Positions 10,234 to 59,062 of a stretch of DNA of 64,000 bases are shown here, piece after piece; the first letter of the stretch is position 1; each line of letters begins with the position of its first letter. The stretch is taken from IMG/VR virus record IMGVR_UViG_3300036770_008730. One strand, 5' to 3'. A model generated the notes under the pieces. The model ran no database searches. It was not told the origin of the DNA and saw only the letters and a program-made list of their open reading frames with translations. This DNA is from a virus (lineage: Duplodnaviria > Caudoviricetes). The position numbers and the translations under genes are program-made.

Positions 10234-10998
10234 ATGGTAATGTATAAATTTTATGAATTCAAATCTTCAGACTTTGATCCTATAAAATCTTTTTATCTTA
10301 AAGATGAGTTGAATCCAAAGTTGTGGGAAAATTTCAGATTGGATAAAGAAGTGAGAGAAAACTTACTTACAATCGCGCAGGATTTTTTCGAGAATGTTAA
10401 GATTGATGCTGAGGTTAAAGATATAGCACTTTGTGGATCATTATGTAATTATAATTGGTCTGAAAAGTATTCTGATTTTGACCTACACATAATAATTAAT
10501 TTTTCTGATGTTGATGAAAATTATGAACTGGTTGAAAATCTTTGTGATTATGCTAAGAAGATATGGAATGAACAACATGATATTAAAATAAAAGGATATG
10601 AAGTTGAAATTGCTATTCAAGATGAAGATGATTTGAAAAAGGGTATTTCTCAAGGTAGAATGGGTGGTGTTTTTTCACTTATGAATAATAAGTGGATAAA
10701 AAGGCCTGAAAAAGCTGACTTTGAACCAGATGAAAAGATGATAAAAGAAAAATCCAAATCTTTAATGATACAAATTGATGATATTGAAGATGAAGTGGAT
10801 GAGGATAAATATGAGTCTTTCAAAAATAAAATTGATAAAGTCTGGAAGAAAATAAAAGACTATAGACAGAGTGGTTTACTCAGTGAGAGTGGTGAGTATT
10901 CAGTTGGTAATTTAGTTTTTAAATTATTAAGACGTAATGGATACATTGGTAAGGTTATGGATCTTAAAAGATATGCTTATGATAAACAATTCAAATAA
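10234..10998 (+). CDS. Nucleotidyltransferase-fold protein (pol beta superfamily); start probably 10234 or 10240 rather than 10102
   Basis: GSLCNYNW..SDFDLHI (GS...DxD) motif plus a later acidic residue in VEIAIQD; ATG lies just after AATATATA at 10218. Confidence 0.65.
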   Translation: MVMYKFYEFKSSDFDPIKSFYLKDELNPKLWENFRLDKEVRENLLTIAQDFFENVKIDAEVKDIALCGSLCNYNWSEKYSDFDLHIIINFSDVDENYELVENLCDYAKKIWNEQHDIKIKGYEVEIAIQDEDDLKKGISQGRMGGVFSLMNNKWIKRPEKADFEPDEKMIKEKSKSLMIQIDDIEDEVDEDKYESFKNKIDKVWKKIKDYRQSGLLSESGEYSVGNLVFKLLRRNGYIGKVMDLKRYAYDKQFK

Positions 10999-11000
10999 TT

Positions 11001-11696
11001 ATGGATATTAAAATTCAGGAAATAGAACAAACATTCAAAGATATATTTGAAGAAGAAGACGGTGTAGTAAGCTCCGTAGACACTGTTTATGAAACACCTG
11101 AAGAAGGAGACTTTCTAAAGTTGATTATTTCTATACAAGGTCTATCGGTTCAAGATATCTCAATTATTCACACGAAATTCATTTTTAAAGTTGATACTGG
11201 TAAAAAGAATCTAATAGAGAATTCTTTTATTTATCTTTATGATATAAATTGCGTTTATCATAAAATTGAGTTTTCAAATATACTTGACTTAAAAAGTAAG
11301 ATAGAAGAGATTATAGAATCGAATAATTTCGGAGAGGATCTTCAAATTTTATCTGATTTCATAGAGGCACCTGCGATGTTTTTGAATTATTACATGAGAA
11401 GGGCTAATATAACTGAGTATTCTGTTTTTGATGTTGAGTATGAACCAAAGTTCAAAATACAACCTTGTGATAAAACTACTTTTGATTTTAAAATCAATAT
11501 TAATAATAATTATAATATAGAGTTGTCAATTAGTAAAGTTGATAGACAAGAGGAGGATGAGGTAGATTCATATAAATTTCAATTCAAATTTATGGATGAG
11601 ATTCAAACTGTTCAAACTGATACGCTTAAAAATGTTCACTTTTTTATAGGAAATAATATAGCCAAGCTTTTGGATAAAAAATTGAAAAATAAATAA
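11001..11696 (+). CDS. Hypothetical protein
   Basis: 231-aa ORF coupled to the upstream gene. Confidence 0.6.
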   Translation: MDIKIQEIEQTFKDIFEEEDGVVSSVDTVYETPEEGDFLKLIISIQGLSVQDISIIHTKFIFKVDTGKKNLIENSFIYLYDINCVYHKIEFSNILDLKSKIEEIIESNNFGEDLQILSDFIEAPAMFLNYYMRRANITEYSVFDVEYEPKFKIQPCDKTTFDFKININNNYNIELSISKVDRQEEDEVDSYKFQFKFMDEIQTVQTDTLKNVHFFIGNNIAKLLDKKLKNK

Positions 11697-11708
11697 AATA
11701 TATACTCT

Positions 11709-12107
11709 ATGATAAAGAAATGGAACGAATATAACGAAGAAGTCTCTTGGTTTTCGAAAAAAGAAGAAAAACCTTCTGACATAACTCCAAAGGGTATAAT
11801 GTCTACTGTTTATCCAGAAGGTGGTAAATTAACATCATATTCTGATGTAAAGGTAAATCCACCACAAAAAAATCCATTAGTTGATGATAAAGTTGATAAA
11901 TCTCTAATACAAGAAATATCTGATAGACTATATGGACCTGATTCGGAAGAATATATCGCAGCTATAAAAGAACTGAATAGTAAATTCAGAAGAGCTAATG
12001 TTTTAGTGGGTCATCAAATGAGAAATCAAGATACCGTGGAAAGAGAAAAACGTAGAGCTGAAGCTGAGCGTGAACTTGCTAACAAATATGGTAGAACTAA
12101 TCCATAA
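11709..12107 (+). CDS. Hypothetical protein with capsid-targeting-like N-terminus (MIKKWNEYNEE)
   Basis: 132-aa ORF 4 nt after AATATATA. Confidence 0.55.
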   Translation: MIKKWNEYNEEVSWFSKKEEKPSDITPKGIMSTVYPEGGKLTSYSDVKVNPPQKNPLVDDKVDKSLIQEISDRLYGPDSEEYIAAIKELNSKFRRANVLVGHQMRNQDTVEREKRRAEAERELANKYGRTNP

Positions 12108-12164
12108 TTCAATTTTAGGGACTATTCATTTTTAATATATAAATAAATTTTTATTTAAAAATAA

Positions 12165-13862
12165 ATGGCTTCTTATAATAACTTCAATAGCTCTTCAAAT
12201 ACCGGTGGTTTTATTCAAAATTCAGCTGTTGAAAACAAAGGTTTATTCAGTAGAATACTAAGAAATCTATCATCATATGGTATGAATTATGATGATATGA
12301 TTATTCGTAATCAAGTTGGTATTGGTGTTAATGAAGATCCATATGCTGCAAGAGGAAATTCAATGTATGATTTTTTTTCACAGAGAGCTGTAGCTTCTGT
12401 TTTGAATCGAAAATCAATTCCTTATTTAGATAAATCTTATGCTGATAAAAGAAGAATTTTAAGAGAGTATTCTATAAAAGATGAGATACGAGACTTTGTA
12501 AGTTCTCTTTCAGATGAATGTATTATTTACAATGATGAGAGAGATTTTTGTTTTCCAAAAAAAATATCAAATGAATATCCTCAGGAAATTCAAGATAAAT
12601 ATCAAGAATACTTTGAAAAAGTCTATATTAAGTATGGATTTAGTGATAATATCAGTGCTTGGAGTATGATGAAAGACTTCCTTATTGATGGTTATTTAGC
12701 AGTAGAGATAGTCTATGATGATAAAAAGAAAAATATTATTGCTTTCAATAGATTAAGACCTGAGACTTTAGTTCCAGCATATGAACCAAATGTTGGTCAT
12801 CTTTGGATTCAATTTCCAGAAGATCCACAATTAAGAAGAATATTTTTAGATTCTCAAATTGTTTTTATTTCTTACTCTTCTCAGAACGATTATAGTGAGA
12901 CTTCCTATGTTGAGGGTTTAATTAAACCATATAATCAGTTAAAGATTTTAGAACAAACTAGAATTATGTTTAACGTTATTAATGCTACTATGTATCAAAA
13001 GTTTACTATACCAATTAAAGGTATGTCAAGACAAAGAGCTGAAGAGCAAATTGGGCAATTGATACAGGATTACTCAGAGGAAGTAGAATGGGATGATACA
13101 CTTGGTACGTTAAGCATCAATGGTTCAAAACATTTACCTTATAATAAGCAGATTTGGTTTCCTGATGGTGATGCTGGTACACCTAATATGGAATTAGTTA
13201 GTCAAGAAGGTCATAACTTGAATGAACAGGATATGTTGACTTGGTTTTTTAATGCTCTTAAAAGAGCGTCGAGAATACCACTTCAAAGATTTGAAAAAGA
13301 AAGTGGTGGTGGTAATTTAATTACTGATGCTGCTGAGATGACAAGAGATGAGATTAAGTTTTATAATTTTATCAATAGAATAAGGGCTAATTTCAAAGAG
13401 TTAATAGTTAAGCCTCTTAAATTACAAATGTTAATTGAATTTCCAGAATTAAAAGATGATGAGGTTTTCATAAATCAAATAGACATTGGATTCAATACTA
13501 ATCAAGTTTTTGAAGAGTGGAAGAAACTGAATAATATGAGTAAGAAGGCCGAGATTTTTGGAACTTTAATTGGTATTATGAATGGTGAAAAGCCTTATTT
13601 CCATATCGAGTATTTAATTGATAATGTTTTCAAACTTACGGCTGAAGAAAAGGCTGAGAATCAAAAGTATTGGGCTAAGGATGCGGCCGCTGCTGGTGCC
13701 GCTGCTCCCGCTGAGGGTGGTGCTCCTGCTGAAGGTGGTGGTGAAGCTCCTCCTGCTGAGGGTGGTGAAGCTCCTCCTGCTGAGGGTGGTGGTGAAGCTC
13801 CTCCTGCTGAGGGTGGTGGTGAAGCTCCTCCTGCTGAAGGTGGTGGTGAATTTGAATTTTAA
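12165..13862 (+). CDS. gp20: Portal protein (T4 gp20-like) with a disordered repeat C-tail
   Basis: FLIDGYLAVEIVYD, RIMFNVINA, LTWFFNALKRASRIPLQRF and ITRDEIKF-like (MTRDEIKF) motifs of gp20 portals; upstream of protease and capsid genes. Confidence 0.85.
   Translation: MASYNNFNSSSNTGGFIQNSAVENKGLFSRILRNLSSYGMNYDDMIIRNQVGIGVNEDPYAARGNSMYDFFSQRAVASVLNRKSIPYLDKSYADKRRILREYSIKDEIRDFVSSLSDECIIYNDERDFCFPKKISNEYPQEIQDKYQEYFEKVYIKYGFSDNISAWSMMKDFLIDGYLAVEIVYDDKKKNIIAFNRLRPETLVPAYEPNVGHLWIQFPEDPQLRRIFLDSQIVFISYSSQNDYSETSYVEGLIKPYNQLKILEQTRIMFNVINATMYQKFTIPIKGMSRQRAEEQIGQLIQDYSEEVEWDDTLGTLSINGSKHLPYNKQIWFPDGDAGTPNMELVSQEGHNLNEQDMLTWFFNALKRASRIPLQRFEKESGGGNLITDAAEMTRDEIKFYNFINRIRANFKELIVKPLKLQMLIEFPELKDDEVFINQIDIGFNTNQVFEEWKKLNNMSKKAEIFGTLIGIMNGEKPYFHIEYLIDNVFKLTAEEKAENQKYWAKDAAAAGAAAPAEGGAPAEGGGEAPPAEGGEAPPAEGGGEAPPAEGGGEAPPAEGGGEFEF
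13710..13850 (+). repeat. GC-rich coding tandem repeat GCTGAGGGTGGT(GGT)GAAGCTCCTCCT encoding AEGG(G)EAPP
   Basis: About 5 copies directly visible at the portal 3' end. Confidence 0.9.
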
Positions 13863-13868
13863 TAGAAT

Positions 13869-13896
13869 AAAAAAACCTATCATTTTGATAGGTTTT
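13869..13896. terminator. Bidirectional intrinsic terminator
   Basis: AAAACCTATCA-TTT-TGATAGGTTTT between convergent genes. Confidence 0.8.
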
Positions 13897-14272
13897 ATTG
13901 TTTTCTGGATATATTATCAACTCCGTATTTCTCAATTAGAGTTGATTTCATTTTGTTCAAAACTTTTTTATTTTGTATTGGATAATCAACACCAAAGTTT
14001 TTTTGTAAGGTTTTTTTCCTCTTATACTCTGAACATCTTCTACATAAATACTCTCCCCATTTATTATCATATTTTATGTAATTTTTGAATATTACGGATT
14101 TTTCTATTCCACAGTTATCGCATTTGCAAACTATTTTATAATGAGAACCTTTTGACATTAATTCAATCGGAATGATAACTTCTTCTCCTATTGTTACGTC
14201 ATAACCTAAATCTTCGTAGTAGTGATAATTGGACTCACTTATTTTTATTGTTATTTCTCTTGTTAGAATCAT
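13895..14272 (-). CDS. Homing-endonuclease-derived zinc-ribbon DNA-binding protein without a nuclease domain
   Basis: CKCDNC..CRRC and FGVDYP/KYGVDNIS repeats of the type seen in ORF 48611; the ORF ends right after them. Confidence 0.55.
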   Translation of the reverse strand: MILTREITIKISESNYHYYEDLGYDVTIGEEVIIPIELMSKGSHYKIVCKCDNCGIEKSVIFKNYIKYDNKWGEYLCRRCSEYKRKKTLQKNFGVDYPIQNKKVLNKMKSTLIEKYGVDNISRKQ

Positions 14273-14355
14273 AAAAAACCACTTAATTTCTTTTATTTAT
14301 AAAAATATCTAATCTCTCTCTAAAACTTTAAGCTGTTTAATTTTTCAAATGACTG

Positions 14356-14402
14356 TAAAAAATCCACCATTGAAAAATATACGATTTTTGAGTCAATATA
14401 TA
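14356..14402 (+). promoter_or_regulatory. Head-gene promoter: TAAAAAATCCACC-N4-AAAAATA-N15-AATATATA
   Basis: Same architecture recurs at 16600-16647. Confidence 0.65.
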
Positions 14403-14429
14403 ATCTACCACAAAAAATAATTATTTTAA

Positions 14430-16595
14430 ATGAAACCGGTTCTAATCGTAGAAAATTCAACTTCTTCTCTTCTCAGAGAGAATAATAGTGGCAGAAAAGA
14501 TTATGTGTTAGGTGGTACTTTTACAGAGTTTGGTGTTAAAAACCGTAACGAAAGAGTATATACAGCAGATAAATTTCTTCCAGCATTAGATGAACTTAAT
14601 GAGAGAATGAAAACGCTTGGTGCAGTTTACGGAGAATTCGATCATCCAGATGTTTTTGATACATCTTTATCAAGAGCATCACACGTTATCACAAAGGCAG
14701 AATACTTAAAAGAATCCAATAAAGTTACTGGTGAAATCAGACTACTTAGTACATATTGGGGTAAAGAAGCTAAGTCTTTGGTAGATGATGGATGTCCTGT
14801 CTTCGTATCTTCAAGAGCGGCTGGTGTTACAGAGTCTGATGGTTCTGTTTCTCTAAAAAAATTGTTCACATATGACATCGTTGCTGACCCAGGTTTTGCT
14901 TCTGCAAAAATGAGTGTTAAAAGTCTTAACGAGTCACTTGGATACAACCCAAAATCTAACTTTAGGATATATGAAATGTCCGATGAGTCCAAAATAAATG
15001 AACTATTCAATATGAATAAAGATGAATTTGTAACAAAAAAACAATTAACTGATTACTCTAAATATTTAGTTAATGAATTAGCTTCTACAAAGAAAGAAGT
15101 TAAGAGTGCAATTTCAAAAGGGAATATGAATCCTAAGAAATTGGAGCAGTTACTTGAATACTACGAAGAATTAAATAAGACAAACGGTCAAGTTGTTAAA
15201 TACTTAGACTATTTGGCTGAGAAAGTACAAGTAATGGTAAATGAAAACAAGTCTTTAAAAGCGACTACTGATAAACTTATTAAACACAATGATTATTTAG
15301 CAGAGAATTTAGAAAAAGCGGTAAACTATTCTGAATACTTAGCAGAAAATCTTGACAAAAACATTGAGTATTCTGAATACTTAGCAGAAAACTTAGATAG
15401 AAATATTTCTTATTCTGAGTATATCGCTGAAAATTTAGATAAAAACATTTCTTATTCTGAATACTTAGCAGAAAACTTAGATAAGAATATTGCTTACTCT
15501 GAGTATATCGCAGAAAACTTAGATAAGAATATCGCTTATTCTGAGTATATCGCAGAAAACTTAGACAAAAACATTGGATATTCTGAATATTTAGCTGAGC
15601 ATGTTGACAATTCAATTGCTTATTCTGAATATTTAGCTGAGCATGTTGAAGGTAACATCGCTTACTCTGAATACATTGCTGAACATTTAGATGATAACAT
15701 TGCTTATTCTGAGTATATCGCAGAAAATCTTGATAAATCAATTTCTTATCAGTCACTAATTACTGAAAAATTAAATGGTACAAGATTAAACGAAAATAAT
15801 GATCATGACGCTTTACCTGGAGTAAATGTTGTTGGTATTGAAAATGTTGAAGATGCTGACAATGATGATAATTGTGGACCAGTTAAAAATAATGATGGAG
15901 ACGATGATGATGCTGACTTAGCTGGTATCAGTCATGGTAATCCAGAAAATAAATGGAATAAAGAAAATAATGATGGAGACGGTGATGCTGATGGAGATGC
16001 TGATGCTGATGCTGATGGAGACGGAGCTTATGGACATGATGGTGCACATAACAACGCTCACTTAGAAGGTAACTCTGATTCTGAATTATCAAAATCTATT
16101 AATAAATTAATTGAAGAAGCTAAAAAACGTAAAGTTTCTGAAACAACTGACTTGAATTTCTTAAAGTTCTTAAACAAGTCACAAGTTGATAGCTTTTATG
16201 CACTTACAGAGAGTGAACAAGAAACTGTTAAACTTCACATAAACGAAAGAAGTTATTTCACACAAAAAGAAGTATTGTCTCTAATTGCAGAAGCTTTGTC
16301 TACAAAGAATGAATCTATCGAAGAAAGAGTAATCAGATTGATGCCTGAAAACATTAAGCCAATCTGGAATCAGTTAAATGAGTCTTCTAAAAAATCAGTG
16401 CTTTCACAAGCTAGATTATATCCAGAAGATGTATTAAAAACTGAAAATCAAGTTGAACATTTCTGGTTAACCAGAAATCTCAAAAAAAATGAGTCTGTAA
16501 CTAAAAAGTTAGTAGCACACGAAAGTTTAATACAAGAAGATAAACTTTCAGATAAAGATGTGAAAGCTATTATGGAAAGATTCAAAACAATTTAA
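14430..16595 (+). CDS. gp21: Prohead protease (T4 gp21-like) fused to a scaffold-like coiled-coil region
   Basis: GVKNRNERVY, YGEFDHP, VFVSSRAAG, TYDIVADPGF protease motifs; followed by 14-aa YSEYLAENLDKNIx repeats. Confidence 0.85.
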   Translation: MKPVLIVENSTSSLLRENNSGRKDYVLGGTFTEFGVKNRNERVYTADKFLPALDELNERMKTLGAVYGEFDHPDVFDTSLSRASHVITKAEYLKESNKVTGEIRLLSTYWGKEAKSLVDDGCPVFVSSRAAGVTESDGSVSLKKLFTYDIVADPGFASAKMSVKSLNESLGYNPKSNFRIYEMSDESKINELFNMNKDEFVTKKQLTDYSKYLVNELASTKKEVKSAISKGNMNPKKLEQLLEYYEELNKTNGQVVKYLDYLAEKVQVMVNENKSLKATTDKLIKHNDYLAENLEKAVNYSEYLAENLDKNIEYSEYLAENLDRNISYSEYIAENLDKNISYSEYLAENLDKNIAYSEYIAENLDKNIAYSEYIAENLDKNIGYSEYLAEHVDNSIAYSEYLAEHVEGNIAYSEYIAEHLDDNIAYSEYIAENLDKSISYQSLITEKLNGTRLNENNDHDALPGVNVVGIENVEDADNDDNCGPVKNNDGDDDDADLAGISHGNPENKWNKENNDGDGDADGDADADADGDGAYGHDGAHNNAHLEGNSDSELSKSINKLIEEAKKRKVSETTDLNFLKFLNKSQVDSFYALTESEQETVKLHINERSYFTQKEVLSLIAEALSTKNESIEERVIRLMPENIKPIWNQLNESSKKSVLSQARLYPEDVLKTENQVEHFWLTRNLKKNESVTKKLVAHESLIQEDKLSDKDVKAIMERFKTI
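15290..15760 (+). repeat. 42-bp coding tandem repeat (14 aa, two heptads): 10 YSEY units plus degenerate flanks
   Basis: TATTCTGA(A/G)TA(C/T)(T/A)T..GC.GAAAA..T.GA.AA.AA.AT. units read directly. Confidence 0.9.
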
Positions 16596-16599
16596 TCTA

Positions 16600-16647
16600 T
16601 AAAAAATCCACCTTAGTAAAAATAAGACTTTCAGGTGATAATATATA
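16600..16647 (+). promoter_or_regulatory. Head-gene promoter: TAAAAAATCCACC-N5-AAAAATA-N15-AATATATA
   Basis: Matches the element upstream of the protease gene. Confidence 0.65.
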
Positions 16648-16673
16648 GATAACAAAAAAAAATAAAAAACAAT

Positions 16674-51618: not shown

Positions 51619-51637
51619 AGTTTTAAATATTTTACTA

Positions 51638-52258: not shown

Positions 52259-52378
52259 ATATTTTTTAATTATTTTTTATAATTTATATATTTTCTCCGT
52301 TATTATCTTTAGCTGTTTTCACACATAATATGTTGTAAATAATGCCTTTTCCACTTTTTAGACTTAATAGATACCACT

Positions 52379-52714
52379 ATGAACTGTAACTATAGGTATT
52401 GTGGTAAAGATATAAGATATGGTAGACCAGATCGTAGATTTTGTAATAAAGACTGTAAATCTAAAGAAAAGTCTATAATTAAAGAGTTAAAAGCGCTTAA
52501 TAGAAAATCTAAAAAGAGTAGAGATTTTATACAAAAATCAAGAAAGAAACATAAAAATAGATATAACTATGATTTAGTATTGTATGAAAATTGCAGAACT
52601 AAAGTTAAAATAATTTGTCCAGTGCATGGTGTCTTTGAACAAACACCAGACGCTCATCTTTATTCAGGTAGAGGTTGTGAAAAATGTGCCAGAGAGGCAA
52701 GAAGAAAAGATTAA
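52379..52714 (+). CDS. Homing-endonuclease-derived zinc-binding protein without a nuclease domain
   Basis: C..C..RRFC..DC and KVKIICPVHGVFEQTPDAHLYSGRGCEKC repeat unit; no catalytic domain follows. Confidence 0.6.
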   Translation: MNCNYRYCGKDIRYGRPDRRFCNKDCKSKEKSIIKELKALNRKSKKSRDFIQKSRKKHKNRYNYDLVLYENCRTKVKIICPVHGVFEQTPDAHLYSGRGCEKCAREARRKD

Positions 52715-52748
52715 TTCAACCATACTGAATTTTACAATATAATACTAT

Positions 52749-53888
52749 ATGAGTAAAATTTACATGATCGGAGATAGTCACATTGGACTTGGATTTCCAA
52801 ATAGCGTAGATAAATGGTTTAAAGTTCATAAAGAGTATTTTAGTGAATTTTTGATACCTTTATTAAAAAGAGAAGTTAAATCGGGTGATATAATTGTTCA
52901 TTTGGGTGATTTGTTCGACAATAGAAATGTGATTCCTATCAATTTACTTAACTATGGAATGGATATTGTAGAAGAAATATCTAAAATTGCACCATTTCAT
53001 ATTATAGTTGGTAATCATGATCTTTGGTCTAAAAGTGCAAGTGAAGTTAATAGTATTCGTCCATTCAAATGGATTCCAAATGTTTTTGTACATGATACTG
53101 TTACAAAGATAGATTATAATGGTTTGAAACTTTTATTGATGCCTTATGTTGAGAAGAGAGTCGAACAGATTAAATGGATACAAGATAATAGAGATTGTCA
53201 CTATCTTTTTTGCCACTCTGATTTAAATGGTGCTAAAATGCATTTAACATCTGTTGCTCATAAAAATCCTGATAAAATTGATGTCGAGGAGTTTTCAGCA
53301 TTTAAAAAGGTTTACAGTGGTCATATTCACATTGTCTCTGATAACAGTCAGAAAAACTTCAAATTTGTTGGTTCCATTTTTCAAATGGATAGAAATGACA
53401 CCGGAGACCAAAAAGGTATTTTTGTTTTAGATACTGATACCGGTGAAGAAACATTCTTCCCAAATAAGATATCTCCTATTTTTAAGAAATTTAGAGTTGT
53501 TAAAGAAGAAGATGTGGATAGATTAGATGAGATAAAAGATACCAAAGACTATGTTGACTTACAAATTTCTAATAATCTTTTAATTAGTAACAGAAAGCTT
53601 CGTAGAAAACTTGAAGTGATGTTAGAAAAAGGTAACTTTGCCTCTGTTGAATATATTGATGATATTACAAAAGAGTTAGTTGATGGTGAAGAAGTGAATG
53701 AATCTTCAACAGTCGAAGTTGATGAGAATGGAATTGAAATCTCAGTTCAATTAGAATATGAAGACTATATAAAAGAGTATATTCTTAAACAGAAATACGA
53801 CAATGATAAATTTAAATCAGGTGTTATTTCTGAATTTGATGAAGTGATAAAAATTTACACTGACAATTACAAGTCTTCAACAGATTAA
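52749..53888 (+). CDS. gp47: Recombination endonuclease subunit (T4 gp47/SbcD/Mre11-like)
   Basis: IGDSHIG, HLGDLFDNR, VGNHD, SGHIH metallophosphoesterase motifs. Confidence 0.85.
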   Translation: MSKIYMIGDSHIGLGFPNSVDKWFKVHKEYFSEFLIPLLKREVKSGDIIVHLGDLFDNRNVIPINLLNYGMDIVEEISKIAPFHIIVGNHDLWSKSASEVNSIRPFKWIPNVFVHDTVTKIDYNGLKLLLMPYVEKRVEQIKWIQDNRDCHYLFCHSDLNGAKMHLTSVAHKNPDKIDVEEFSAFKKVYSGHIHIVSDNSQKNFKFVGSIFQMDRNDTGDQKGIFVLDTDTGEETFFPNKISPIFKKFRVVKEEDVDRLDEIKDTKDYVDLQISNNLLISNRKLRRKLEVMLEKGNFASVEYIDDITKELVDGEEVNESSTVEVDENGIEISVQLEYEDYIKEYILKQKYDNDKFKSGVISEFDEVIKIYTDNYKSSTD

Positions 53889-54826
53889 AATTTCAATTCA
53901 CTCACATCTTTTGCTCTACCTGTAGAAGGATCTCTTGAATTAATAATTTTATTCGGATTGATTCCTGGTCTAGTTGTTAGATAAAAACCATTTTCTAATT
54001 CTCCCTTTACACCTAGTAGATTTAGTATTTCTTTAGGACTATTGTGCTTTGAACTAATCAACATTTGCTCAACATTTTCAGCCGTATACATCTTATTATC
54101 TAAATCCGGTTTGTCTGTAGCTTGAAACCATCTGCAATACTGATACATTCCAGAATCCTCATTATTAACATCTATTCGTTCGGATTTATTTTCACTATTT
54201 ACTCTACTATCAATATTTTTCAGATACCAATCTAATGGTGTGAATATTAGATAATCTTCGATATTACCAAACACTTTGAATTCTTTTATTCCTGTATCTA
54301 CATCATCAAATACTATCGTTTTGGCTTTCGAAAAGTAAGCAACCCATGCCATTCCAAATCTTCTACCATCATGGCCATCTTTTTGTTTGCTTTTTGCTTT
54401 TGGATCTGGATCAGTTAAATATCCTATATGTGGTCTTATTTCTTCATATTTCTTTTTTTCCTCATCAGAAGCAATTTCTTGCCATTTTTTGAAATCGTCT
54501 TTGTAGATTTCTATCAACCAAGGATTATCTTTAAAGCTATTAGCAGAAAGTTTGGCTAATTCAGGCAAACCATTTTCTGATATCATCTCCATTAATTTTT
54601 GAAAAATTAAATCGTTGCCTTGAAAATTATCTGTACCTGTTAAGACCTTATCTGCCTCTGGATTTTGATACCAATGGACAATTTTAGTTGGCGCTAAACT
54701 TTTTGAATCGGTTGCTAAATAAGTTTTACCAGAAGCGCTTGGTCCAGATAGCAAAATAAACTTTTTACCTTCAACTCCTTCTTTTAGTAGTTTAATAAAA
54801 CTTTCGTATAACTTTAAGTATTTCAT
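53885..54826 (-). CDS. P-loop kinase-like protein with capsid-targeting-like N-terminus
   Basis: MKYLKLYESF start; LLSGPSASGKT Walker A; IVFDD. Confidence 0.6.
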   Translation of the reverse strand: MKYLKLYESFIKLLKEGVEGKKFILLSGPSASGKTYLATDSKSLAPTKIVHWYQNPEADKVLTGTDNFQGNDLIFQKLMEMISENGLPELAKLSANSFKDNPWLIEIYKDDFKKWQEIASDEEKKKYEEIRPHIGYLTDPDPKAKSKQKDGHDGRRFGMAWVAYFSKAKTIVFDDVDTGIKEFKVFGNIEDYLIFTPLDWYLKNIDSRVNSENKSERIDVNNEDSGMYQYCRWFQATDKPDLDNKMYTAENVEQMLISSKHNSPKEILNLLGVKGELENGFYLTTRPGINPNKIINSRDPSTGRAKDVSELKF

Positions 54827-54895
54827 AGTTTTGTTTTTTTTTTTCTGTATTATATATTAATTTTTATCCTATAAATTTTTCTAAATATACCAAAC

Positions 54896-55615
54896 CTAAC
54901 TTATTACTTCGATTCCTTCCTGGCCGAAGACGAAGACTTCTCGACCCCTGAAGATGATAGCAGTGTCTTCCGAGATGCCCAATCCTATCTTCCCAGAAGT
55001 AAGACCGACTGCTATCTTCAGGCGAGAGATTCTACCTCTTTCTCTAAAATGAGTGTCTACTACGATGTCTGGCAACATAGATAGACCCTTTTTCATGAGG
55101 GGTATACTTTTGCCACCTGCTATCATCTCTCCGGATAGGGCCATAGCACCAGCAGAAGTACCTACCACAGCCATTCCTTCTGAAAATCGTTGCTTCATTC
55201 TACTCAGGAAGGAAGTTCCCAGGTAACATTCAGTTATTCTCGATTGATCTCCTCCCACGAAGAAAATTGTATCAGCAACATCTAGCTTTTTCAAGTTCTC
55301 TTCGGTGTCAACCTCGGAGGCAGTTGAAGTGTGTAGAAAAGTTGTGATGCATCCCAATCGGTTAAAAATAGGGAGGTATTTTCTTTCAGCATCTTCTTTG
55401 TGGGCAGTGGCTGTAGTCACGACCAAAAGATTAGCAGAACCCAGTCCATTGATAACAAGCTCTAAGCACTTCTCGGATTCAGATCCACCCACTAGAGCAA
55501 ATGTCTGACCATTTCTCAAGTACGGTGCGATCATGTCTTCGTACTTCAGGTTGAAGCTCTCCACCAACCAGTCACCAAAGTTTTTAATAAGCATTCTTGA
55601 GGTCTTTCTTTTCAT
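54896..55615 (-). CDS. cphB: Cyanophycinase-like peptidase (S51 family); alternative start 55594
   Basis: LVGGSE, IFFVGGDQ, GTSAGA (Ser), VDTHFRERGRISRL (His), GISEDTA (Glu). Confidence 0.8.
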   Translation of the reverse strand: MKRKTSRMLIKNFGDWLVESFNLKYEDMIAPYLRNGQTFALVGGSESEKCLELVINGLGSANLLVVTTATAHKEDAERKYLPIFNRLGCITTFLHTSTASEVDTEENLKKLDVADTIFFVGGDQSRITECYLGTSFLSRMKQRFSEGMAVVGTSAGAMALSGEMIAGGKSIPLMKKGLSMLPDIVVDTHFRERGRISRLKIAVGLTSGKIGLGISEDTAIIFRGREVFVFGQEGIEVIS

Positions 55616-55638
55616 GTTCTATATCGTACCTTTTGTGT

Positions 55639-55677
55639 CTAAAACCTGATTGTGTCAAATAGTTTTAAGTACCTCAT
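55639..55677 (-). other. 12-codon mini-ORF MRYLKLFDTIRF (isolated capsid-targeting-like peptide or gene remnant)
   Basis: ATG overlaps the upstream TGA (ATGA coupling); stops at TAG 55641-55639. Confidence 0.45.
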
Positions 55678-55934
55678 AACTTCTGTAATTTTATTTTCAA
55701 ATCACCGGTTCCTTTTATTAGTCTATGATAAATACCCATTGGTATAAAAACTTCTCCCCTTATTTGTTTAGGTAATTCATTATCAATTTGAATCATCCAA
55801 TCTGTTTCACCGATAGATTCAATTATACGATTTTCAAAATCTCGATGCCACATAAATTCACCAGAATCTGTATCTTGTTTGAACTCTCTGATAAATGTAT
55901 TATCACTTAATTTAGTTTCTTTAAATGGTAACAT
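55674..55934 (-). CDS. Small cupin-fold protein
   Basis: FMWHRD..IP.GIYHRLIKG cupin-like His motifs. Confidence 0.6.
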   Translation of the reverse strand: MLPFKETKLSDNTFIREFKQDTDSGEFMWHRDFENRIIESIGETDWMIQIDNELPKQIRGEVFIPMGIYHRLIKGTGDLKIKLQKL

Positions 55935-55938
55935 ATTT

Positions 55939-56727
55939 TTATTTATTATATAAACCTAGATAGTATTTTAATTTCTGAGGAAATTCCGTTCCCGCTGCTT
56001 TTATCTTTTGATACAATTCATCAGACATATCTTTATGTCTTTTACGAAACTCATCAGGAGACATAAACCATAAATATAAATTCAATTTTTCTTTGGATCT
56101 TTCTACCATGTCTATTTCACGAAGTTTTTTCAAATCCATTTTGGTTTCTCCTGGGTATTTTTTTGAGTATAAATAAGCGAATTGTTTTGCATGAGAATCT
56201 ACTTCCTTTTTTGATGCTAAGTATGAATATCCTTCATCTTCACCTGATTTAAATCCTTCTTTTTCTATATTTGCAATATGTTGAACCTCATGTTGTAAAC
56301 TCGATTTTAGGGCATCTACTGGATAATTAAATAATTTAGTAGTTCCTATTTCAATGCCTTCGGTTCTTATAGGATCATTTTTTGATTTTATTGCAGCTCC
56401 TTCACTCTTTGGTATCAAACGTATAAAGAAATCTTTTTGCAGAGATTTAAATGATTTCTTAATAATTGGATCAATCTGGTCAAAATCAGTTAATAAAGTA
56501 GCTGGCTCTGATGATAATCTTATATTTTGATAAGGTTTATAATGTTTTTTTATAAACTCACTTATACTTAAATTTCCTGGATTTTTTTGATAATAAATTG
56601 AAATTTGAGACTTGAAATCTAAAAGCACATCTCTAAGGAATTTATAAATCAATTTTATAGATTTATTTTCATCTTCACTTAAATATTCAGCATTTTCGAA
56701 TAGACTGTATGTTTTTAGATACTTCAT
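55939..56727 (-). CDS. HExxH zinc-metallopeptidase-like protein with capsid-targeting-like N-terminus (start probably 56727)
   Basis: MKYLKTYSLFEN; LQHEVQHIA plus downstream YLASKKEVDSHA. Confidence 0.55.
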   Translation of the reverse strand: MKYLKTYSLFENAEYLSEDENKSIKLIYKFLRDVLLDFKSQISIYYQKNPGNLSISEFIKKHYKPYQNIRLSSEPATLLTDFDQIDPIIKKSFKSLQKDFFIRLIPKSEGAAIKSKNDPIRTEGIEIGTTKLFNYPVDALKSSLQHEVQHIANIEKEGFKSGEDEGYSYLASKKEVDSHAKQFAYLYSKKYPGETKMDLKKLREIDMVERSKEKLNLYLWFMSPDEFRKRHKDMSDELYQKIKAAGTEFPQKLKYYLGLYNK

Positions 56728-56741
56728 AACCAATTTATTTT

Positions 56742-57701
56742 TTACCAGAATCCCGGATAAGTTTTTCCGCCCCACAAATGTCCATATTTATTTATGCGAC
56801 ATGCCCAGTATCCAGCCTTTGTCTTATCCTTCTTTGTAGAACATTTATGACGAGCAGCAAATGACTTTCTTGCCTTAGGATTGCTCACCTTAGCAGTTAA
56901 TCCACCGTGAACATCACCAAAAGAAATCTTTTTAACCTTACCAGTTTTAGGATTCTTTACATAAACTTGATATTTTTTAGTACCACCACGCATTGGATAA
57001 TTTAACTTAACTTTTTTACCCTTATATTCCGCCTCATTTACTTCTTCTATATTTTCCATAGGTAAATCCAAAGGAACCTTTTTCCCATTAAAATAACCAA
57101 AGTTACCTATCTCGGTCTCTCTGTATAATGATTCATCAATACTACAAAGTTTTATTTTACCAGAATCATATAATCTTCTAGCTTCTGTTAAAACATTAAA
57201 GAAAGATTTTGAACCAGGTCTAAAAATACTTTCTGTTATTGGTTTGTTGTTGGTTAAGTGCCATTTTAAGTTCTCCGATACTTCAGGCATTGAGACAAAT
57301 TGAACTTGTAAGTCACCACACTGACAGTCATCACATCCACAATCACACTCAGAGTCTCCTGTGCAATCATCACAACAACCACATCCTTCACCTTCTTCAT
57401 ATTCTGATTCAAATTCATCATCATCATCATCATCTTCATATTCACCGATTTCAAATTCGTTTTCACATTCCATATTTTCAACATTATCAATATTGATGGT
57501 TATGAATGATTCAAATTTTTCAACTTTATTTTTCTTAAGATTATTTAATTCTTTTTCATCGTGTTCAACAGGTTCAGTTTTGATACCTAATCCCATGATT
57601 TCTTCTTTCTCATTTTCTAAAGATTTAGCTGAGAATCCAAAGTCTTCTTCTTTAACTTTTTTTTCTTTCTTCTTTTCGTTGAATTTTCTGAGATGTTTCA
57701 T
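56742..57701 (-). CDS. Hypothetical modular protein: capsid-targeting-like N-terminus, acidic Cys-rich tract, basic C-terminal domain
   Basis: MKHLRKFNEK; GCGCCDDC..CDCGCDDCQC; YVKNPKTGKVKKISFGD..ARKSFAARHKC..AGYWAC. Confidence 0.6.
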   Translation of the reverse strand: MKHLRKFNEKKKEKKVKEEDFGFSAKSLENEKEEIMGLGIKTEPVEHDEKELNNLKKNKVEKFESFITINIDNVENMECENEFEIGEYEDDDDDDEFESEYEEGEGCGCCDDCTGDSECDCGCDDCQCGDLQVQFVSMPEVSENLKWHLTNNKPITESIFRPGSKSFFNVLTEARRLYDSGKIKLCSIDESLYRETEIGNFGYFNGKKVPLDLPMENIEEVNEAEYKGKKVKLNYPMRGGTKKYQVYVKNPKTGKVKKISFGDVHGGLTAKVSNPKARKSFAARHKCSTKKDKTKAGYWACRINKYGHLWGGKTYPGFW

Positions 57702-57703
57702 AG

Positions 57704-59062
57704 TTATTTTTTAGTTTTTATAAGATATTTCTTTATAAGTAGTTTCCAAACAGGTTCTTCTCTATCACCAATTCTCATTATTTCTTCGTTTCCAGCTCTT
57801 AAGTTTATTGAGTGAATTAGAGTTCTGATGTTGAGGTCAAATTTCACCGGATAGTTATCAGTAACATAAATTAGGTATTCTAAAGCTTCTTCTTTTAGTT
57901 TCATATCTAATTCTGGTGATATTCTTGACATAATCTCTTTCATTCTTGAAATGATTTCTTCTTTGTTAAGATTTACATCAACATGTAGAGACCTAGAAAG
58001 AATTGCGTCATCGAATTTCTCTTCTGCTAAATTAGAAATGAAAATCACCTGACCTGAAAATTCGAATCTGTTAGGTAACATTCTTCCCTCTTTTTCTTCA
58101 TATTCTTGTTGAATTTCTAAATCACTCATACCTGTTGAGTCAAAAGTGTTACCTTTTGTCAGTTTAGATAGTTCTCTTACTGGATAAGTATCTAAAGCTC
58201 CTTTAAGTAAGTTTACTGAATCGGCATCTTTTAGAACAGCATCACAATCATCAAAGATGATTAACTTATTTCTGTGTTTGAATAGGACTTCAAATAGACC
58301 AGCTGTTGTAATGGTGCCTGTTGATTTATAATAGTGAACATCTGGTTGCATTCCAATAGATCTTAGCGTGTCTGTTACAACTGAAGTTTTACCAACACCC
58401 GCTTGTCCACTTACAATTAGAGAATTACTTTTACCTCTTGCAACTTGTATTGTGTATAATTCAATAGCTTTGAAAATATCAATTTTAAGATCTTGAACAG
58501 TTATTTTATCTGATTCTTTTTCAGCCTTTTCTGTGGTTGCAACAATTGCTCTTAGTTGTTCAATTCTTCTTTCAATTTTTTCAACGCTAGTTGGAGACTT
58601 TGCTCTTTTTCTTTTCTTTTCCCACTCTTGGAGCTCTTCTTTTGGATCATAAGTTTCTTGTAGTTCTGTTTCTTCTACCTTTTGAATCATTGATTCCGGA
58701 TTATTGAAGAAGTCTACTACAAAAGGTAAATGTTTAACAATTGATTCATCTTTAGGTATAAAGAGAGTAAATTCTGGATTCTTCTCAAATTCAAAATTCA
58801 ACCATAAATCTATTGAATGTATTACATTTCTAATGTCATCTTCTTTCCAATTTATTCTAATGGCCTTTGTTGTTTTAAGAGAAATAAATAATTGACCTCT
58901 TAGAAAGTCCATTCCTTTTTGAATAAAGAATATTTCGTTATATGGATATAAATCATTTCCAGTCTTTCTTTCGATAAATTCTGTTATTTTTTGTATAGCA
59001 TCTTCTTTATCCTTGGATAGAAATGCCTCTAAAAATAGTTCGTATTTTTTTAAGATTTTCAT
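57704..59062 (-). CDS. AAA+ ATPase with capsid-targeting-like N-terminus
   Basis: MKILKKYELFLEA; SGQAGVGKTS, LIIFDDCD, AILSRSL (Arg finger). Confidence 0.75.
   Translation of the reverse strand: MKILKKYELFLEAFLSKDKEDAIQKITEFIERKTGNDLYPYNEIFFIQKGMDFLRGQLFISLKTTKAIRINWKEDDIRNVIHSIDLWLNFEFEKNPEFTLFIPKDESIVKHLPFVVDFFNNPESMIQKVEETELQETYDPKEELQEWEKKRKRAKSPTSVEKIERRIEQLRAIVATTEKAEKESDKITVQDLKIDIFKAIELYTIQVARGKSNSLIVSGQAGVGKTSVVTDTLRSIGMQPDVHYYKSTGTITTAGLFEVLFKHRNKLIIFDDCDAVLKDADSVNLLKGALDTYPVRELSKLTKGNTFDSTGMSDLEIQQEYEEKEGRMLPNRFEFSGQVIFISNLAEEKFDDAILSRSLHVDVNLNKEEIISRMKEIMSRISPELDMKLKEEALEYLIYVTDNYPVKFDLNIRTLIHSINLRAGNEEIMRIGDREEPVWKLLIKKYLIKTKK

What the first reader, a model, noticed from the sequence alone, without database searches (positions are those of the whole stretch)
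10234..59062. Candidate virion cargo system: about 14 unrelated proteins share a T4-like capsid-targeting N-terminal peptide
Seen: starts M(VM)YKFYEF (10234), MIKKWNEYNEE (11709), MKYIKYFEG (18436), MNLKKFNQFE (20214), MKYLVKFKLFEE (30980), MRYLKLYEDFE (32722), MKHIRTFEKY (33432), MKYVKKRDSFL (40826), MKHLLTFGLFLE (43956), MKYLKLYESF (54826), MLIKNFGDWLVES (55594), MKYLKTYSLFEN (56727), MKHLRKFNEK (57701) and MKILKKYELFLE (59062). The consensus is about MK(Y/H)(L/I)Kx(F/Y)xx(F/Y)..E. Structural and replication genes lack it. Most carriers, or the first genes of their operons, follow the AATATATA motif. Established: T4 internal proteins carry an N-terminal CTS (MKTYQEFIAE) that routes them into the prohead and is cut off by gp21 after Glu. 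Inference: this phage packages and injects an enzyme kit (nucleotidyltransferase, NFACT-R, amidoligase, cysteine hydrolase, kinase, cyanophycinase, metallopeptidase, AAA+) that acts before phage transcription starts. Late expression of such enzymes makes most sense if they work in the next cell.
Basis: partly seen in the sequence, partly recalled or inferred. Interest (0 to 1): 0.88.

Follow-up and report, generated by a model that had tools for sequence, protein, structure and literature searches.

The report
Shared N-terminal tag, huge phage
About a dozen unrelated proteins in this stretch of an uncultivated ~600-kb phage, and about one gene in six in a related phage, start with the same 9-12 amino acids; the tag resembles the phage T4 signal that loads proteins into the capsid, but no experiment has tested what it does.

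Summary
Of the 14 starts listed, 10 carry the tag clearly, 2 are borderline (11709, 43956) and 2 fail (10234, 55594).

The window comes from a Mahaphage-type huge phage, on a contig of about 598 kb. It holds a T4-like head module: a gp20 portal, a gp21-family protease fused to a repeat scaffold, and a gp23 capsid protein.

In the relative LR756502, 147 of 922 genes (16%) start with M-K/R-H/Y-L/I-K-x-Y/F...E-S/N. The motif is rare at internal positions (53 of 147,026). Synonymous codons vary at the conserved positions, so selection acts on the peptide. The carriers fall into 135 unrelated sequence groups, and the tag is gained and lost between orthologues. An AlphaFold2 model of one carrier predicts the tag as disordered.

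Carriers sit behind the same AATATATA promoter motif as the head genes. The tag places hydrophobic residues at positions 4 and 7, which are the T4 targeting positions. It ends in Glu-Ser/Asn, like conserved hydrophobic-x-Glu sites in this phage's capsid protein, protease and scaffold repeats.

A T4-like capsid-loading propeptide is therefore the best reading (about 50%). Packaging, cleavage and timing are all untested. The "enzyme kit" idea is only partly supported, because most carriers have no recognisable domain. This scan had already noted the same tag on other DNA (e1-5208597).

The parts
18436..18852 (+). Carrier: NFACT-R domain protein, tag MKYIKYFEG. It lies directly after the capsid gene's terminator, with AATATATA 4 nt before the ATG.
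   Evidence: Pfam NFACT-R_1 E 3.5e-14, domain from residue 21. Tag HMM p 0.00025. Promoter spacing.
20214..20684 (+). Carrier, one residue shorter than usual: acidic 156-aa protein, MNLKKFNQFEK. Orthologues start MKLKKYKDIFEK and MKINKYKKFLEK.
   Evidence: p 0.00035.
30980..32071 (+). Carrier, 363 aa, no Pfam domain, tag MKYLVKFKLFEE. The LR756502 orthologue starts MKHIIKFSLFEE.
32072..32722 (-). Carrier, 216 aa, nicotinamidase/isochorismatase-like fold, tag MRYLKLYEDFE. The family has more than 1,100 metagenomic homologues that keep the tag.
   Evidence: AF2 mean pLDDT 84; residues 1-12 have pLDDT <50 and are coil. In 113 homologues: E8 in 111, F/Y7 in 113.
32785..33432 (-). Carrier, 215 aa, tag MKHIRTFEKY. 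The orthologue starts MKHIRQFESY.
40826..43954 (+). Probable carrier variant, 1042 aa, MKYVKKRDSFL (Arg instead of an aromatic at position 7). First gene of the operon that holds the sheath gene. The LR756502 homologue starts MRYLKQREEF.
   Evidence: 8.2; p 0.00025.
43956..44510 (+). Borderline carrier, 184 aa, MKHLLTFGLFLE.
   Evidence: Leave-one-out PSSM score 17.0, but independent HMM p 0.0012.
11709..12107 (+). Borderline carrier, 132 aa, MIKKWNEYNEE. The LR745206 homologue lacks the peptide.
   Evidence: p 0.0016.
53885..54826 (-). Carrier, 313 aa, with a P-loop-like stretch (LLSGPSASGKT) seen by eye and no Pfam match. Tag MKYLKLYESF.
55939..56727 (-). Carrier, 262 aa, tag MKYLKTYSLFEN (inner Met of the listed ORF).
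   Evidence: best score, 22.2.
56742..57701 (-). Carrier, 319 aa, tag MKHLRKFNEK.
57704..59062 (-). Carrier, 452 aa, weak AAA-type hits, tag MKILKKYELFLE. The orthologue starts MKIKKYQAFYE.
53885..57701 (-). Variable islet: three carriers, the untagged S51 peptidase gene and an 86-aa gene, with no counterpart in LR756502. The same slot there holds a different 109-aa carrier.
55639..55677 (-). 12-codon relic ORF MRYLKLFDTIRF*, upstream of the S51 peptidase gene and out of frame with it.
54896..55615 (-). S51 (cyanophycinase-family) peptidase. Its listed start at 55594 is NOT a supported tag.
   Evidence: Pfam E 2.5e-17. Tag HMM p 0.06.
10234..10998 (+). Weak nucleotidyltransferase-like protein. 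The listed peptide MVMYKFYEF is NOT a supported tag.
12165..13862 (+). T4 gp20-type portal, no tag.
   Evidence: Pfam Portal_T4 E 1.7e-54.
14430..14936 (+). gp21-family prohead protease domain (residues 1-169). The N-terminus MKPVLIVE|N follows the tag layout. His72 and Ser127 align with T4 gp21 His85 and Ser140. The domain ends at a conserved LNE|S that aligns with T4 gp21 ITE|S.
15285..15746 (+). Scaffold-like array of 11 tandem 14-aa repeats (NIxYSEY-I/L-AE-N/H-LDK) in the same 721-aa protein. Each repeat holds an (I/L)-A-E site.
   Evidence: This protein has the highest density of such sites in the LR756502 proteome (12 versus 2 or fewer elsewhere).
16674..18368 (+). gp23-type major capsid protein. 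Its N-terminal region aligns with the T4 gp23 propeptide. S-I-N-E43|N-A holds the last Glu before the conserved fold and is kept in 5 relatives.
9407..59113 (.). AATATATA promoter-like motifs. 29 of 32 are intergenic and point at a gene start 4-8 nt or 18-30 nt away. They precede the head genes, TerL and 9 of the 12 carriers.
   Evidence: Genome-wide in LR756502.

Best explanation
The tag is a portable N-terminal address peptide of Mahaphage-type huge phages. It most likely works like the T4 capsid-targeting sequence (CTS).

Proposed steps:
1. Carriers are made together with the head proteins from the shared AATATATA promoter.
2. Residues 1-7 (M-K-H/Y-L/I-K-x-Y/F) dock the carrier onto the protease-scaffold core while the prohead forms.
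3. The gp21-family protease then cuts after the conserved Glu at position 8, 9 or 11, before Ser, Asn or Gly.
4. The released protein stays inside the head and can leave with the DNA at the next infection.

Shown here:
- The tag exists, is specific to N-termini and is under peptide-level selection.
- It sits on unrelated proteins and is gained and lost between orthologues.
- It is predicted to be disordered.
- It shares a promoter motif with the head genes.
- The phage has a T4-type head module with an apparently active protease.
- The same Glu-centred motif recurs at conserved sites in the capsid protein, protease and scaffold.

Inferred, not shown: docking, cleavage, packaging, injection and late timing.
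For: 1. Reality and position. In LR756502, 139 of 922 first-ATG N-termini score 5 or more, plus 8 through alternative Met codons. This compares with 53 of 147,026 internal positions and 3 of 2,997 internal Met.

2. Peptide-level selection. Conserved positions use synonymous codons at about genome frequencies: His CAC/CAT 52/48; Leu TTA/CTA/CTT/TTG; Ser both TCN and AGY.

3. Portability. The 147 carriers form 135 BLAST groups, 124 of them singletons. The window carriers are unrelated to each other. An Rnl1-type RNA ligase has tag plus linker in LR756502, but its LR756501 orthologue starts at the domain. A protein with a GSFxPxHxGH motif, read by eye as a PPAT-like nucleotidyltransferase and not checked against Pfam, shows the reverse pattern.

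4. Detached from the fold. In the AF2 model, residues 1-12 have pLDDT <50 and are coil, and strand 1 starts at residue 16. Pfam domains start after the tag.

5. T4-like head. Portal E 1.7e-54 and capsid protein E 5.8e-28. The protease domain is 27% identical to T4 gp21, with His85 and Ser140 aligned.

6. Layout like the T4 CTS. MKTYQEFIAE occurs twice in T4. In T4, targeting depends on residues 4 and 7 and processing on residues 8 and 10, and gp21 cuts after L/I-x-E (PMC9026906). Here, position 4 is L/I in 111 of the 114 LR756502 starts picked by a first-pass pattern. That pattern already required I/L/V/F at position 4 and F/Y/W at position 7, so these counts mainly show which residues dominate. 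Less circular: the relaxed pattern (hydrophobic 4, aromatic 7, aromatic 10) is about 53-fold more frequent at N-termini than at internal positions, and F/Y7 is kept in 113 of 113 homologues of one carrier family. Glu sits at position 9 or 11 in 91 of 147 carriers and mostly at position 8 in the rest.

7. The same motif at independent conserved sites. Capsid protein S-I-N-E43|N-A, which holds the last Glu before the fold; T4 cuts gp23 at L-T-E65|A. LNE|S at the end of the protease domain, aligned with T4 gp21 ITE|S. (I/L)-A-E in each of 11 scaffold repeats. LNEN and LNES further on in the same protein. The protease's own start, MKPVLIVE|N.

8. Co-regulation. AATATATA lies within 80 nt upstream of 51% of carriers versus 16% of other genes (Fisher 5e-18). 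126 of 147 carriers versus 235 of 775 other genes lie in operons headed by it. It also precedes portal, protease, capsid protein and TerL.

9. Accessory, fast-turnover genes, like the T4 internal-protein loci. 9 of 147 carriers versus 181 of 775 other genes have a homologue in LR756501 (Fisher 3e-7). The window also has a variable islet.

10. Virus-only. At least 120 IMG/VR stretches match the tag pattern, versus 7 hits in 596 Gb of prokaryote genomes.
Against: - There are no protein-level data. The phage is uncultivated.
- The closest cultured relative, Tenacibaculum phage PTm1, has the same head module and similar INE|N and LNES motifs but no tag. The tag is therefore not needed for head assembly, and no published virion proteome can test it.
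- One gene in six is far beyond any known packaged repertoire.
- Carriers are net acidic (-0.036 versus -0.013 charge per residue), unlike the basic T4 internal proteins.
- In type-A tags (E8), the residue two places before the Glu is often Thr or Lys, so the T4 L/I-x-E rule is not met.
- The cleavage sites in capsid protein, protease and scaffold are inferred from conservation and alignment, and were chosen after the fact.
- Carriers mostly use the 3-10 nt promoter spacing (64 short, 7 long), while the head genes use the 16-32 nt spacing. They may therefore form a separate expression class.
- AATATATA also precedes non-structural genes such as ClpS and a TnsA-like nuclease.
- LR756501 has the same head genes but only about 27 relaxed tags.
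Confidence: 0.5

Rival explanations
1. The tag is an address or docking peptide for another partner, not the capsid interior. Candidates are a phage chaperone, a tail or baseplate assembly, or some other phage-made structure in the cell. It may or may not be cleaved.
For: - It is N-terminal, portable and disordered, as any docking tag would be.
- Carriers form their own promoter-spacing class, distinct from the head genes.
- Two carriers (40826, 43956) head the sheath operon.
- The huge number of carriers and their acidity fit capsid loading poorly.
- PTm1 builds the same head without the tag.
Against: - No candidate receptor was identified.
- The match to the T4 CTS layout, and to the Glu sites of this phage's own head proteins, would then be coincidence.
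Confidence: 0.22
2. The tag is an expression or stability element. In this reading it is a nascent N-terminal peptide, or its codons, that favours translation of leaderless late mRNAs or protects the protein from degradation. It would have no sorting role.
For: - 64 of the 72 promoter-bearing carriers have AATATATA only 3-10 nt before the ATG, which implies leaderless or nearly leaderless mRNAs.
- The second codon is AAA in 82% of cases, against 61% genome-wide.
- A ClpS homologue is encoded nearby.
Against: - 61 carriers lie inside operons within 30 nt of the upstream gene and still carry the tag.
- 56 non-carriers have the short spacing without the tag.
- Beyond codon 2, synonymous codons vary freely, while aromatic-7, Glu-8 and aromatic-10 are nearly invariant across 113 homologues. 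This is more specific than any known translation effect.
- Met-Lys is not an N-degron (own knowledge).
Confidence: 0.12
3. The promoter-plus-tag module is mainly a recombination joint that lets gene cassettes be swapped. The conserved peptide would then be a by-product with little protein-level function.
For: - The variable islet at 53885-57701, with a different carrier in the same slot in LR756502.
- The relic mini-ORF MRYLKLFDTIRF* in front of an untagged gene.
- Tag gain and loss between orthologues.
- Carriers are poorly conserved.
Against: - Nucleotide identity across tags is low because synonymous sites vary, so they make poor substrates for homologous recombination.
- Conservation is at the amino-acid level and persists across more than 100 homologues of one family.
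- This role could also exist alongside a sorting function, as proposed for the T4 internal-protein loci (own knowledge).
Confidence: 0.06

Closest known systems
Phage T4 capsid-targeting sequence (CTS; MKTYQEFIAE of IPII and IPIII), removed by the gp21 prohead protease
   Same: - About 10 residues at the extreme N-terminus, with an MK start.
- Hydrophobic or aromatic residues at positions 4 and 7.
- Glu near positions 8-11, followed by a small residue.
- Found on otherwise unrelated, fast-evolving proteins, each often with its own late-type promoter.
- The phage encodes gp20, gp21 and gp23 homologues.
   Different: - No detectable sequence homology; the peptide is too short to show any.
- Lys at position 5 and His or Tyr at position 3 are specific to this clade.
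- Three length variants exist, with Glu at position 8, 9 or 11.
- About 150 carriers per genome, against a handful in T4.
- Carriers are acidic, not basic.
- The protease is fused to a repeat scaffold.
- Packaging and cleavage are untested.
Propeptides of phiKZ, 201phi2-1 and SPN3US head and ejection proteins, cut after Glu by gp21-like proteases
   Same: - Giant phages with many (19 or more) processed head proteins.
- Cleavage after Glu with few other determinants.
- A large internal protein load (PMC9026906; abstract of PMC7411985).
   Different: - Those propeptides are long and share no short common N-terminal tag.
- Their cleavage motif is S/A-x-E.
- Here there is a uniform 9-12-residue tag, and its cleavage is only inferred.
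Cargo-loading peptides of encapsulins, and encapsulation peptides of bacterial microcompartments
   Same: A short terminal peptide plus linker directs diverse enzymes into a protein shell. Encapsulin shells have the phage-capsid (HK97) fold (own knowledge).
   Different: - Encapsulin tags are usually C-terminal and are not cleaved.
- No encapsulin or microcompartment shell gene was found in the window.
- The shell here would be a DNA-filled virion.

Membership tests
T4-type capsid-targeting propeptide (CTS) | Short peptide (about 10 aa) at the extreme N-terminus only | tested here: met
   N-terminal rate 15-16%, against 0.036% of internal positions. The top window hits all lie on start codons.
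T4-type capsid-targeting propeptide (CTS) | Carried by otherwise unrelated proteins | tested here: met
   135 BLAST groups for 147 carriers. No similarity among the window carriers. Varied Pfam domains or none.
T4-type capsid-targeting propeptide (CTS) | Targeting determinants at residues 4 and 7 (T4: Tyr4, Phe7; PMC9026906) | tested here: met
   Position 4 is L/I in 111 of the 114 starts picked by a pattern that itself required I/L/V/F at position 4 and F/Y/W at position 7. Independent support: I/L4 in 112 and F/Y7 in 113 of 113 homologues of one family. The relaxed tag of LR756501 keeps only these positions plus an aromatic at 10. What is met is the layout; the function was not tested.
T4-type capsid-targeting propeptide (CTS) | Ends in a gp21-type site, L/I-x-Glu followed by a small residue | tested here: inconclusive
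   91 of 147 carriers have Glu at position 9 or 11, usually preceded by Tyr/Phe-Asn or Ile-Phe. Most of the other 56 have Glu8, with Thr, Lys or Leu two places before it. Glu8 is 98% conserved in one family.
T4-type capsid-targeting propeptide (CTS) | The phage encodes a gp21-family prohead protease with its catalytic residues | tested here: met
   Pfam Peptidase_S77 E 2.9e-5 (below the family cut-off). BLASTP to T4 gp21 E 7e-7, with His85 and Ser140 aligned to His72 and Ser127. The numbering of the catalytic residues is own knowledge.
T4-type capsid-targeting propeptide (CTS) | Carriers are made late, together with the head proteins | tested here: inconclusive
   They share the AATATATA motif with portal, protease, capsid protein and TerL, but mostly in a different spacing class. 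RNA contigs show the head genes transcribed in freshwater samples but cannot give timing.
T4-type capsid-targeting propeptide (CTS) | Carriers are physically inside the prohead or virion and the tag is removed | not testable with these tools
   The phage is uncultivated. The cultured relative PTm1 lacks the tag.
Sec, Tat or lipoprotein signal peptide | Hydrophobic core of 10 or more residues after a basic N-region, followed by a signal peptidase site | tested here: not met
   The tag is amphipathic and charged, 9-12 aa long, and is followed by an acidic stretch (20% Asp+Glu). Only 3 of 147 carriers have any crude transmembrane-like segment.
Encapsulin or microcompartment cargo tag | A dedicated shell protein gene next to the cargo genes | tested here: not met
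   No encapsulin or BMC shell family was found among the window proteins scanned against Pfam. The only shell protein is the gp23-type capsid protein.

The most novel reading that the evidence does not exclude
Mahaphage-type huge phages use one universal tag of about 10 residues to load more than a hundred different, rapidly turning-over proteins into the capsid, and inject them with the DNA. This would be a pre-made counter-defence and takeover proteome an order of magnitude larger than in any studied phage. It would also provide a ready-made packaging signal for cargo delivery.
Probability: 0.4. Interest if true: 0.9.

Novelty: new variant of a known kind. Interest (0 to 1): 0.78.

Why it matters
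If the tag is a capsid-loading signal, it labels most of the packaged and injected proteome of the largest known phages from sequence alone. That would mean about 150 proteins per genome, most of them without any known domain.

This would turn an unannotatable sixth of these genomes into a defined functional class: proteins that act at the moment of entry. It would point to many candidate anti-defence proteins.

It would extend the T4 CTS principle from a handful of proteins to a system-level sorting code, and would give a short portable tag for loading cargo into large capsids.

Even if the destination is not the capsid, a virus-only sorting peptide on 16% of genes is an undescribed feature of phage cell biology. 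I found no paper describing it.

Tried and rejected
- Complex prediction, protease domain (residues 1-215) with the first 40 residues of carrier 56727: no answer, score 0.00. This is not evidence either way.
- Cultured relative as a proxy for virion proteomics. The PTm1 genome was fetched and scanned. It has no tag, either strict or relaxed, so its proteome cannot test the idea.
- Do all tag-bearing IMG/VR contigs hold a gp21, gp23 and gp20 module? Two of five large contigs do, with a protease 89-90% identical. The three others (281-330 kb, with 20-63 strict tags each) showed no portal or protease and only scraps of gp23. They may be fragments of larger genomes, so this is inconclusive.
- A distinct MxNLNxY tag variant in LR756501: only 2 hits, so rejected. 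That genome has a relaxed form of the same tag instead.
- PDB sequence search with the protease-scaffold protein: no hit. The PDB search with the capsid protein aligned only the C-terminal half, so the N-terminal alignment to T4 gp23 was made with MAFFT.
- Nucleotide-level motif as the explanation: rejected by codon variation.
- Paralogous family as the explanation: rejected by clustering.
- A simple frameshift joining the relic MRYLKLFD mini-ORF to the S51 gene: rejected. The S51 frame has a stop just upstream of its ATG (read by eye).
- tRNA and Rfam search of the transcribed gap 20685-21145: nothing.
- My simple ORF caller takes the first ATG and resolves overlaps greedily. Gene counts (922, 963) and some starts are therefore approximate.

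Full report
**What the window is.** The DNA is about 30% G+C. Its nearest public relatives are the uncultured huge-phage records LR745206 (635 kb), LR756502 (642 kb), LR756504 (636 kb) and LR756501/3 (735 kb). By my own knowledge these are the Mahaphage genomes of Al-Shayeb et al. 2020. The window's own contig is about 598 kb. No whole genome is held for it.

Pfam finds a T4-like head module:
- portal gp20 (12165-13862, E 1.7e-54);
- a 721-aa protein with an N-terminal Peptidase_S77 (T4 gp21) domain (14430-16595);
- capsid protein gp23 (16674-18368, E 5.8e-28).

The window also holds a sheath gene, a T4-type TerL, ClpS, Dam methyltransferase, NADAR, a glutamine-synthetase-like gene, a clamp-loader-like AAA gene and a metallophosphoesterase.

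A PSSM from nine clear cases, each scored with itself left out, gives 9.2-18.2. Start 40826 scores 8.2 and every other gene start scores 2.8 or less. Among about 60,000 six-frame 12-mers, the nine top hits all sit on start codons of long ORFs, and the best other hit scores 11.5.

An HMM built only from the relative LR756502 and calibrated on 20,000 decoys supports ten starts at p <= 0.00035. It leaves 43956 and 11709 borderline and does not support 10234 or 55594.

A 12-codon ORF, MRYLKLFDTIRF*, lies just upstream of the S51 peptidase gene in another frame. It looks like the relic of a tag. Without their first 16 residues, the 14 proteins share no similarity.

**Scale in relatives.** I fetched all of LR756502 and called 922 genes with a simple ORF caller.
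- N-terminal tag scores are bimodal. 139 first-ATG starts score 5 or more, and 8 more do so through nearby Met codons, giving 147 carriers (16%). Only 53 of 147,026 internal positions reach that score.
- The consensus is M-K/R-H/Y-L/I-K-x-Y/F, followed by one of three endings: F-E-S-F (Glu8), Y-N-E-S (Glu9) or Y-K-I-F-E-S (Glu11).
- Synonymous codons at the conserved positions follow genome usage, so selection acts on the peptide, not the DNA.
- After trimming, the carriers form 135 BLAST groups, 124 of them singletons.
- Of the 20 largest carriers, 18 have no Pfam domain. One is a T4 Rnl1-type RNA ligase and one a phage lysozyme.

A strict DNA pattern for the tag gives 57, 53, 33 and 0 hits in LR756502, LR745206, LR756504 and LR756501, with controls at 0-2. 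The whole LR756501 genome has a relaxed form, M-x-x-L/I/V-x-x-F/Y-x-x-F/Y, in 27 of 963 genes. That is 12.7 times the internal rate, against 53 times in LR756502.

The tag pattern occurs in at least 120 IMG/VR stretches, often in arrays. It occurs only 7 times in 596 Gb of prokaryote genomes, all of them metagenome-assembled (MAG) records.

**The tag is an add-on.**
- Pfam domains start after it; NFACT-R starts at residue 21.
- The family of window gene 32072-32722 has more than 1,100 metagenomic homologues. In 113 of them in register, I/L4 is kept in 112, K/R5 in 110, F/Y7 in 113, Glu8 in 111, S/N9 in 106 and an aromatic at position 10 in 113. Positions 11-14 vary.
- Its AlphaFold2 model has mean pLDDT 84. 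Residues 1-12 are below 50 and coil, and strand 1 begins at residue 16. The best PDB fold matches are nicotinamidases and isochorismatase-family hydrolases, but weakly (E 0.02, TM 0.42).
- Orthologue pairs show gain and loss. The RNA ligase has tag plus linker in LR756502, but its LR756501 orthologue starts at the domain. A protein with a GSFxPxHxGH motif, which I read by eye as a PPAT-like nucleotidyltransferase, shows the reverse.
- In LR756502 the NFACT-R orthologue has gained a 100-aa N-terminal domain that buries the old tag.
- Carriers are poorly conserved. 9 of 147 have a homologue in LR756501, against 181 of 775 other genes (Fisher 3e-7).
- The window block 53885-57701 has no counterpart in LR756502, where the same slot holds a different carrier.

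**Expression context.** AATATATA occurs 32 times in the window. 29 copies are intergenic and point at the next start, 4-8 nt or 18-30 nt away. It precedes portal, protease-scaffold, capsid protein, TerL and the giant ORFs, as well as nine of the twelve accepted carriers. It is absent before Dam, NADAR, the glutamine-synthetase-like gene, the clamp-loader-like gene and the metallophosphoesterase.

In LR756502 the motif lies within 80 nt upstream of 51% of carriers, against 16% of other genes (Fisher 5e-18). 126 of 147 carriers, against 235 of 775 other genes, sit in operons headed by it.

Carriers, however, use the short spacing (64 short, 7 long), which suggests leaderless mRNAs. Non-carriers split 56 to 61, and the head genes all use the long spacing.

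Contigs from four freshwater metatranscriptomes lie mainly on the protease-scaffold and capsid genes, with some on 18072-19405. These data cannot show timing or transcript ends.

**Link to head maturation.** This is what the present window adds. The protease domain is 27% identical to T4 gp21 (E 7e-7), with T4 His85 and Ser140 aligned to His72 and Ser127.

According to PMC9026906:
- gp21 cuts after L/I-x-Glu;
- the CTS is the first 10 residues of IPIII;
- targeting depends on residues 4 and 7, and processing on residues 8 and 10;
- gp21 has a site-like LIE9 near its own N-terminus and is processed at its C-terminus.

T4 indeed encodes MKTYQEFIAE twice. Its gp23 is cut at L-T-E65|A66, since the mature chain is 456 residues out of 521.

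In this phage and four relatives, which are 46-84% identical to the window over these head proteins:
- The capsid protein's N-terminal region aligns with the T4 gp23 propeptide (KKWxPxLE). The last Glu before the conserved fold lies in S-I-N-E43|N-A, and this is kept as I/M-N/H-E-N in all five.
- The protease domain ends at a conserved S/V/T-L/I-N-E|S, which aligns with T4 gp21 I-T-E|S.
- The rest of the 721-aa protein holds 11 tandem 14-residue repeats, NIxYSEY-I/L-AE-N/H-LDK. Each has an I/L-A-E site. LNEN and LNES sites follow.
- This protein has by far the highest density of such motifs in the LR756502 proteome: 12, against 2 or fewer elsewhere.
- The protease's own start, MKPVLIVE|N, has the layout of a type-A tag.

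So the ending of the tag (Y/F-N-E-S, I-F-E-S/N, F-E-S) resembles the sites where, by analogy with T4, this phage's head proteins should be cut. These sites are inferred, not measured, and were picked after looking. Type-A tags often lack the hydrophobic residue two places before the Glu.

**Interpretation.** The best-supported mechanism is a T4-CTS-like propeptide. Residues 1-7 would dock the carrier to the protease-scaffold core, the protease would cut after the Glu, and the mature protein would stay in the head. I put this at about 0.5.

Against it:
- There are no protein data.
- The cultured relative PTm1 has the same head module and similar INE|N and LNES motifs but no tag.
- One gene in six carries the tag.
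- Carriers are acidic.
- Carriers use a separate promoter-spacing class.

On capacity, T4 holds about 1,000 internal protein molecules (PMC3012670) and SPN3US more than 40 MDa of ejection proteins (abstract of PMC7411985). A 600-kb capsid could therefore hold many species at low copy number. This last step is my inference.

Rivals are a docking tag for another destination (0.22), an expression or stability element tied to leaderless mRNAs (0.12), and a recombination joint (0.06).

**Known or new.** The principle is the T4 CTS. The closest parallels in giant phages are the Glu-specific processing of many head proteins in phiKZ, 201phi2-1 and SPN3US, which lack a common short tag. Six literature searches and two full-text look-ups found no description of a shared N-terminal tag in huge phages.

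Earlier notes of this same scan report the same tag on another fragment (e1-5208597) and analogous tags in other huge phages. These are not independent evidence. I re-derived the counts here and added the head-module comparison.

I class this as a new variant of a known kind, with high interest because of its scale and because it is directly testable.

Noticed in passing
window 14430-16595: The prohead protease is fused to a scaffold-like region of 11 tandem 14-aa repeats (NIxYSEY-I/L-AE-N/H-LDK), an acidic low-complexity stretch and a conserved C-terminal domain. The same architecture is found in LR745206, LR756502, LR756504 and LR756501. Tenacibaculum phage PTm1 has a looser form.
   Followed up: partly
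window, 32 AATATATA sites; LR756502 genome-wide: The promoter-like motif has two sharp spacing classes to the ATG: 3-10 nt (probably leaderless mRNAs) and 16-32 nt. Tagged genes use the short class (64 versus 7), while the head genes use the long class.
   Followed up: partly
window 20685-21145: A 460-nt gap without an ORF. Contigs from three or four freshwater metatranscriptomes lie on about 20775-21075. ARAGORN and Rfam find nothing convincing. It could be an unannotated small RNA or a long leader.
   Followed up: partly
window 34529-34813 (+) and 34810-36948 (-): A phage ClpS homologue (Pfam E 2e-19) with its own AATATATA motifs overlaps the 3' end of the converging T4-type terminase large-subunit gene by 4 nt. 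A phage-encoded N-degron adaptor is unusual, and I did not examine it further.
   Followed up: no
window 32072-32722 (-): This family has no Pfam match but more than 1,100 metagenomic homologues at about 65-75% identity. It has a nicotinamidase/isochorismatase-like fold, and its invariant residues include D21, K113, K162 and C185. It may be an NAD-salvage or amidohydrolase enzyme of huge phages.
   Followed up: partly
window 39743-40174 (-) and 40178-40669 (-): Two adjacent paralogues, MALKFNIEKVICINLKSHNE and MKFNINKVICINLKSHNE, each with a C-terminal DUF6576 match. LR756502 has no homologue.
   Followed up: no
window 13895-14272 (-) and 48611-50317 (+): Two DUF7487 proteins. The small one sits on the opposite strand between the portal and protease genes and is conserved there in LR756502 and LR745206.
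   Followed up: no
LR756502 229253-229942 (L005): The orthologue of the NFACT-R carrier has gained about 100 N-terminal residues (MKKYILVADD...). The former tag (KIIKFDKFNEG) is now internal, so a tag has been buried by domain accretion.
   Followed up: partly
window 12165-20684, public runs: Near-identical DNA is present in subsurface, freshwater and lagoon metagenomes from several studies. Transcripts of the capsid and scaffold genes, from this phage or strains 90-99% alike, occur in freshwater metatranscriptomes. The phage lineage is therefore active in nature.
   Followed up: partly
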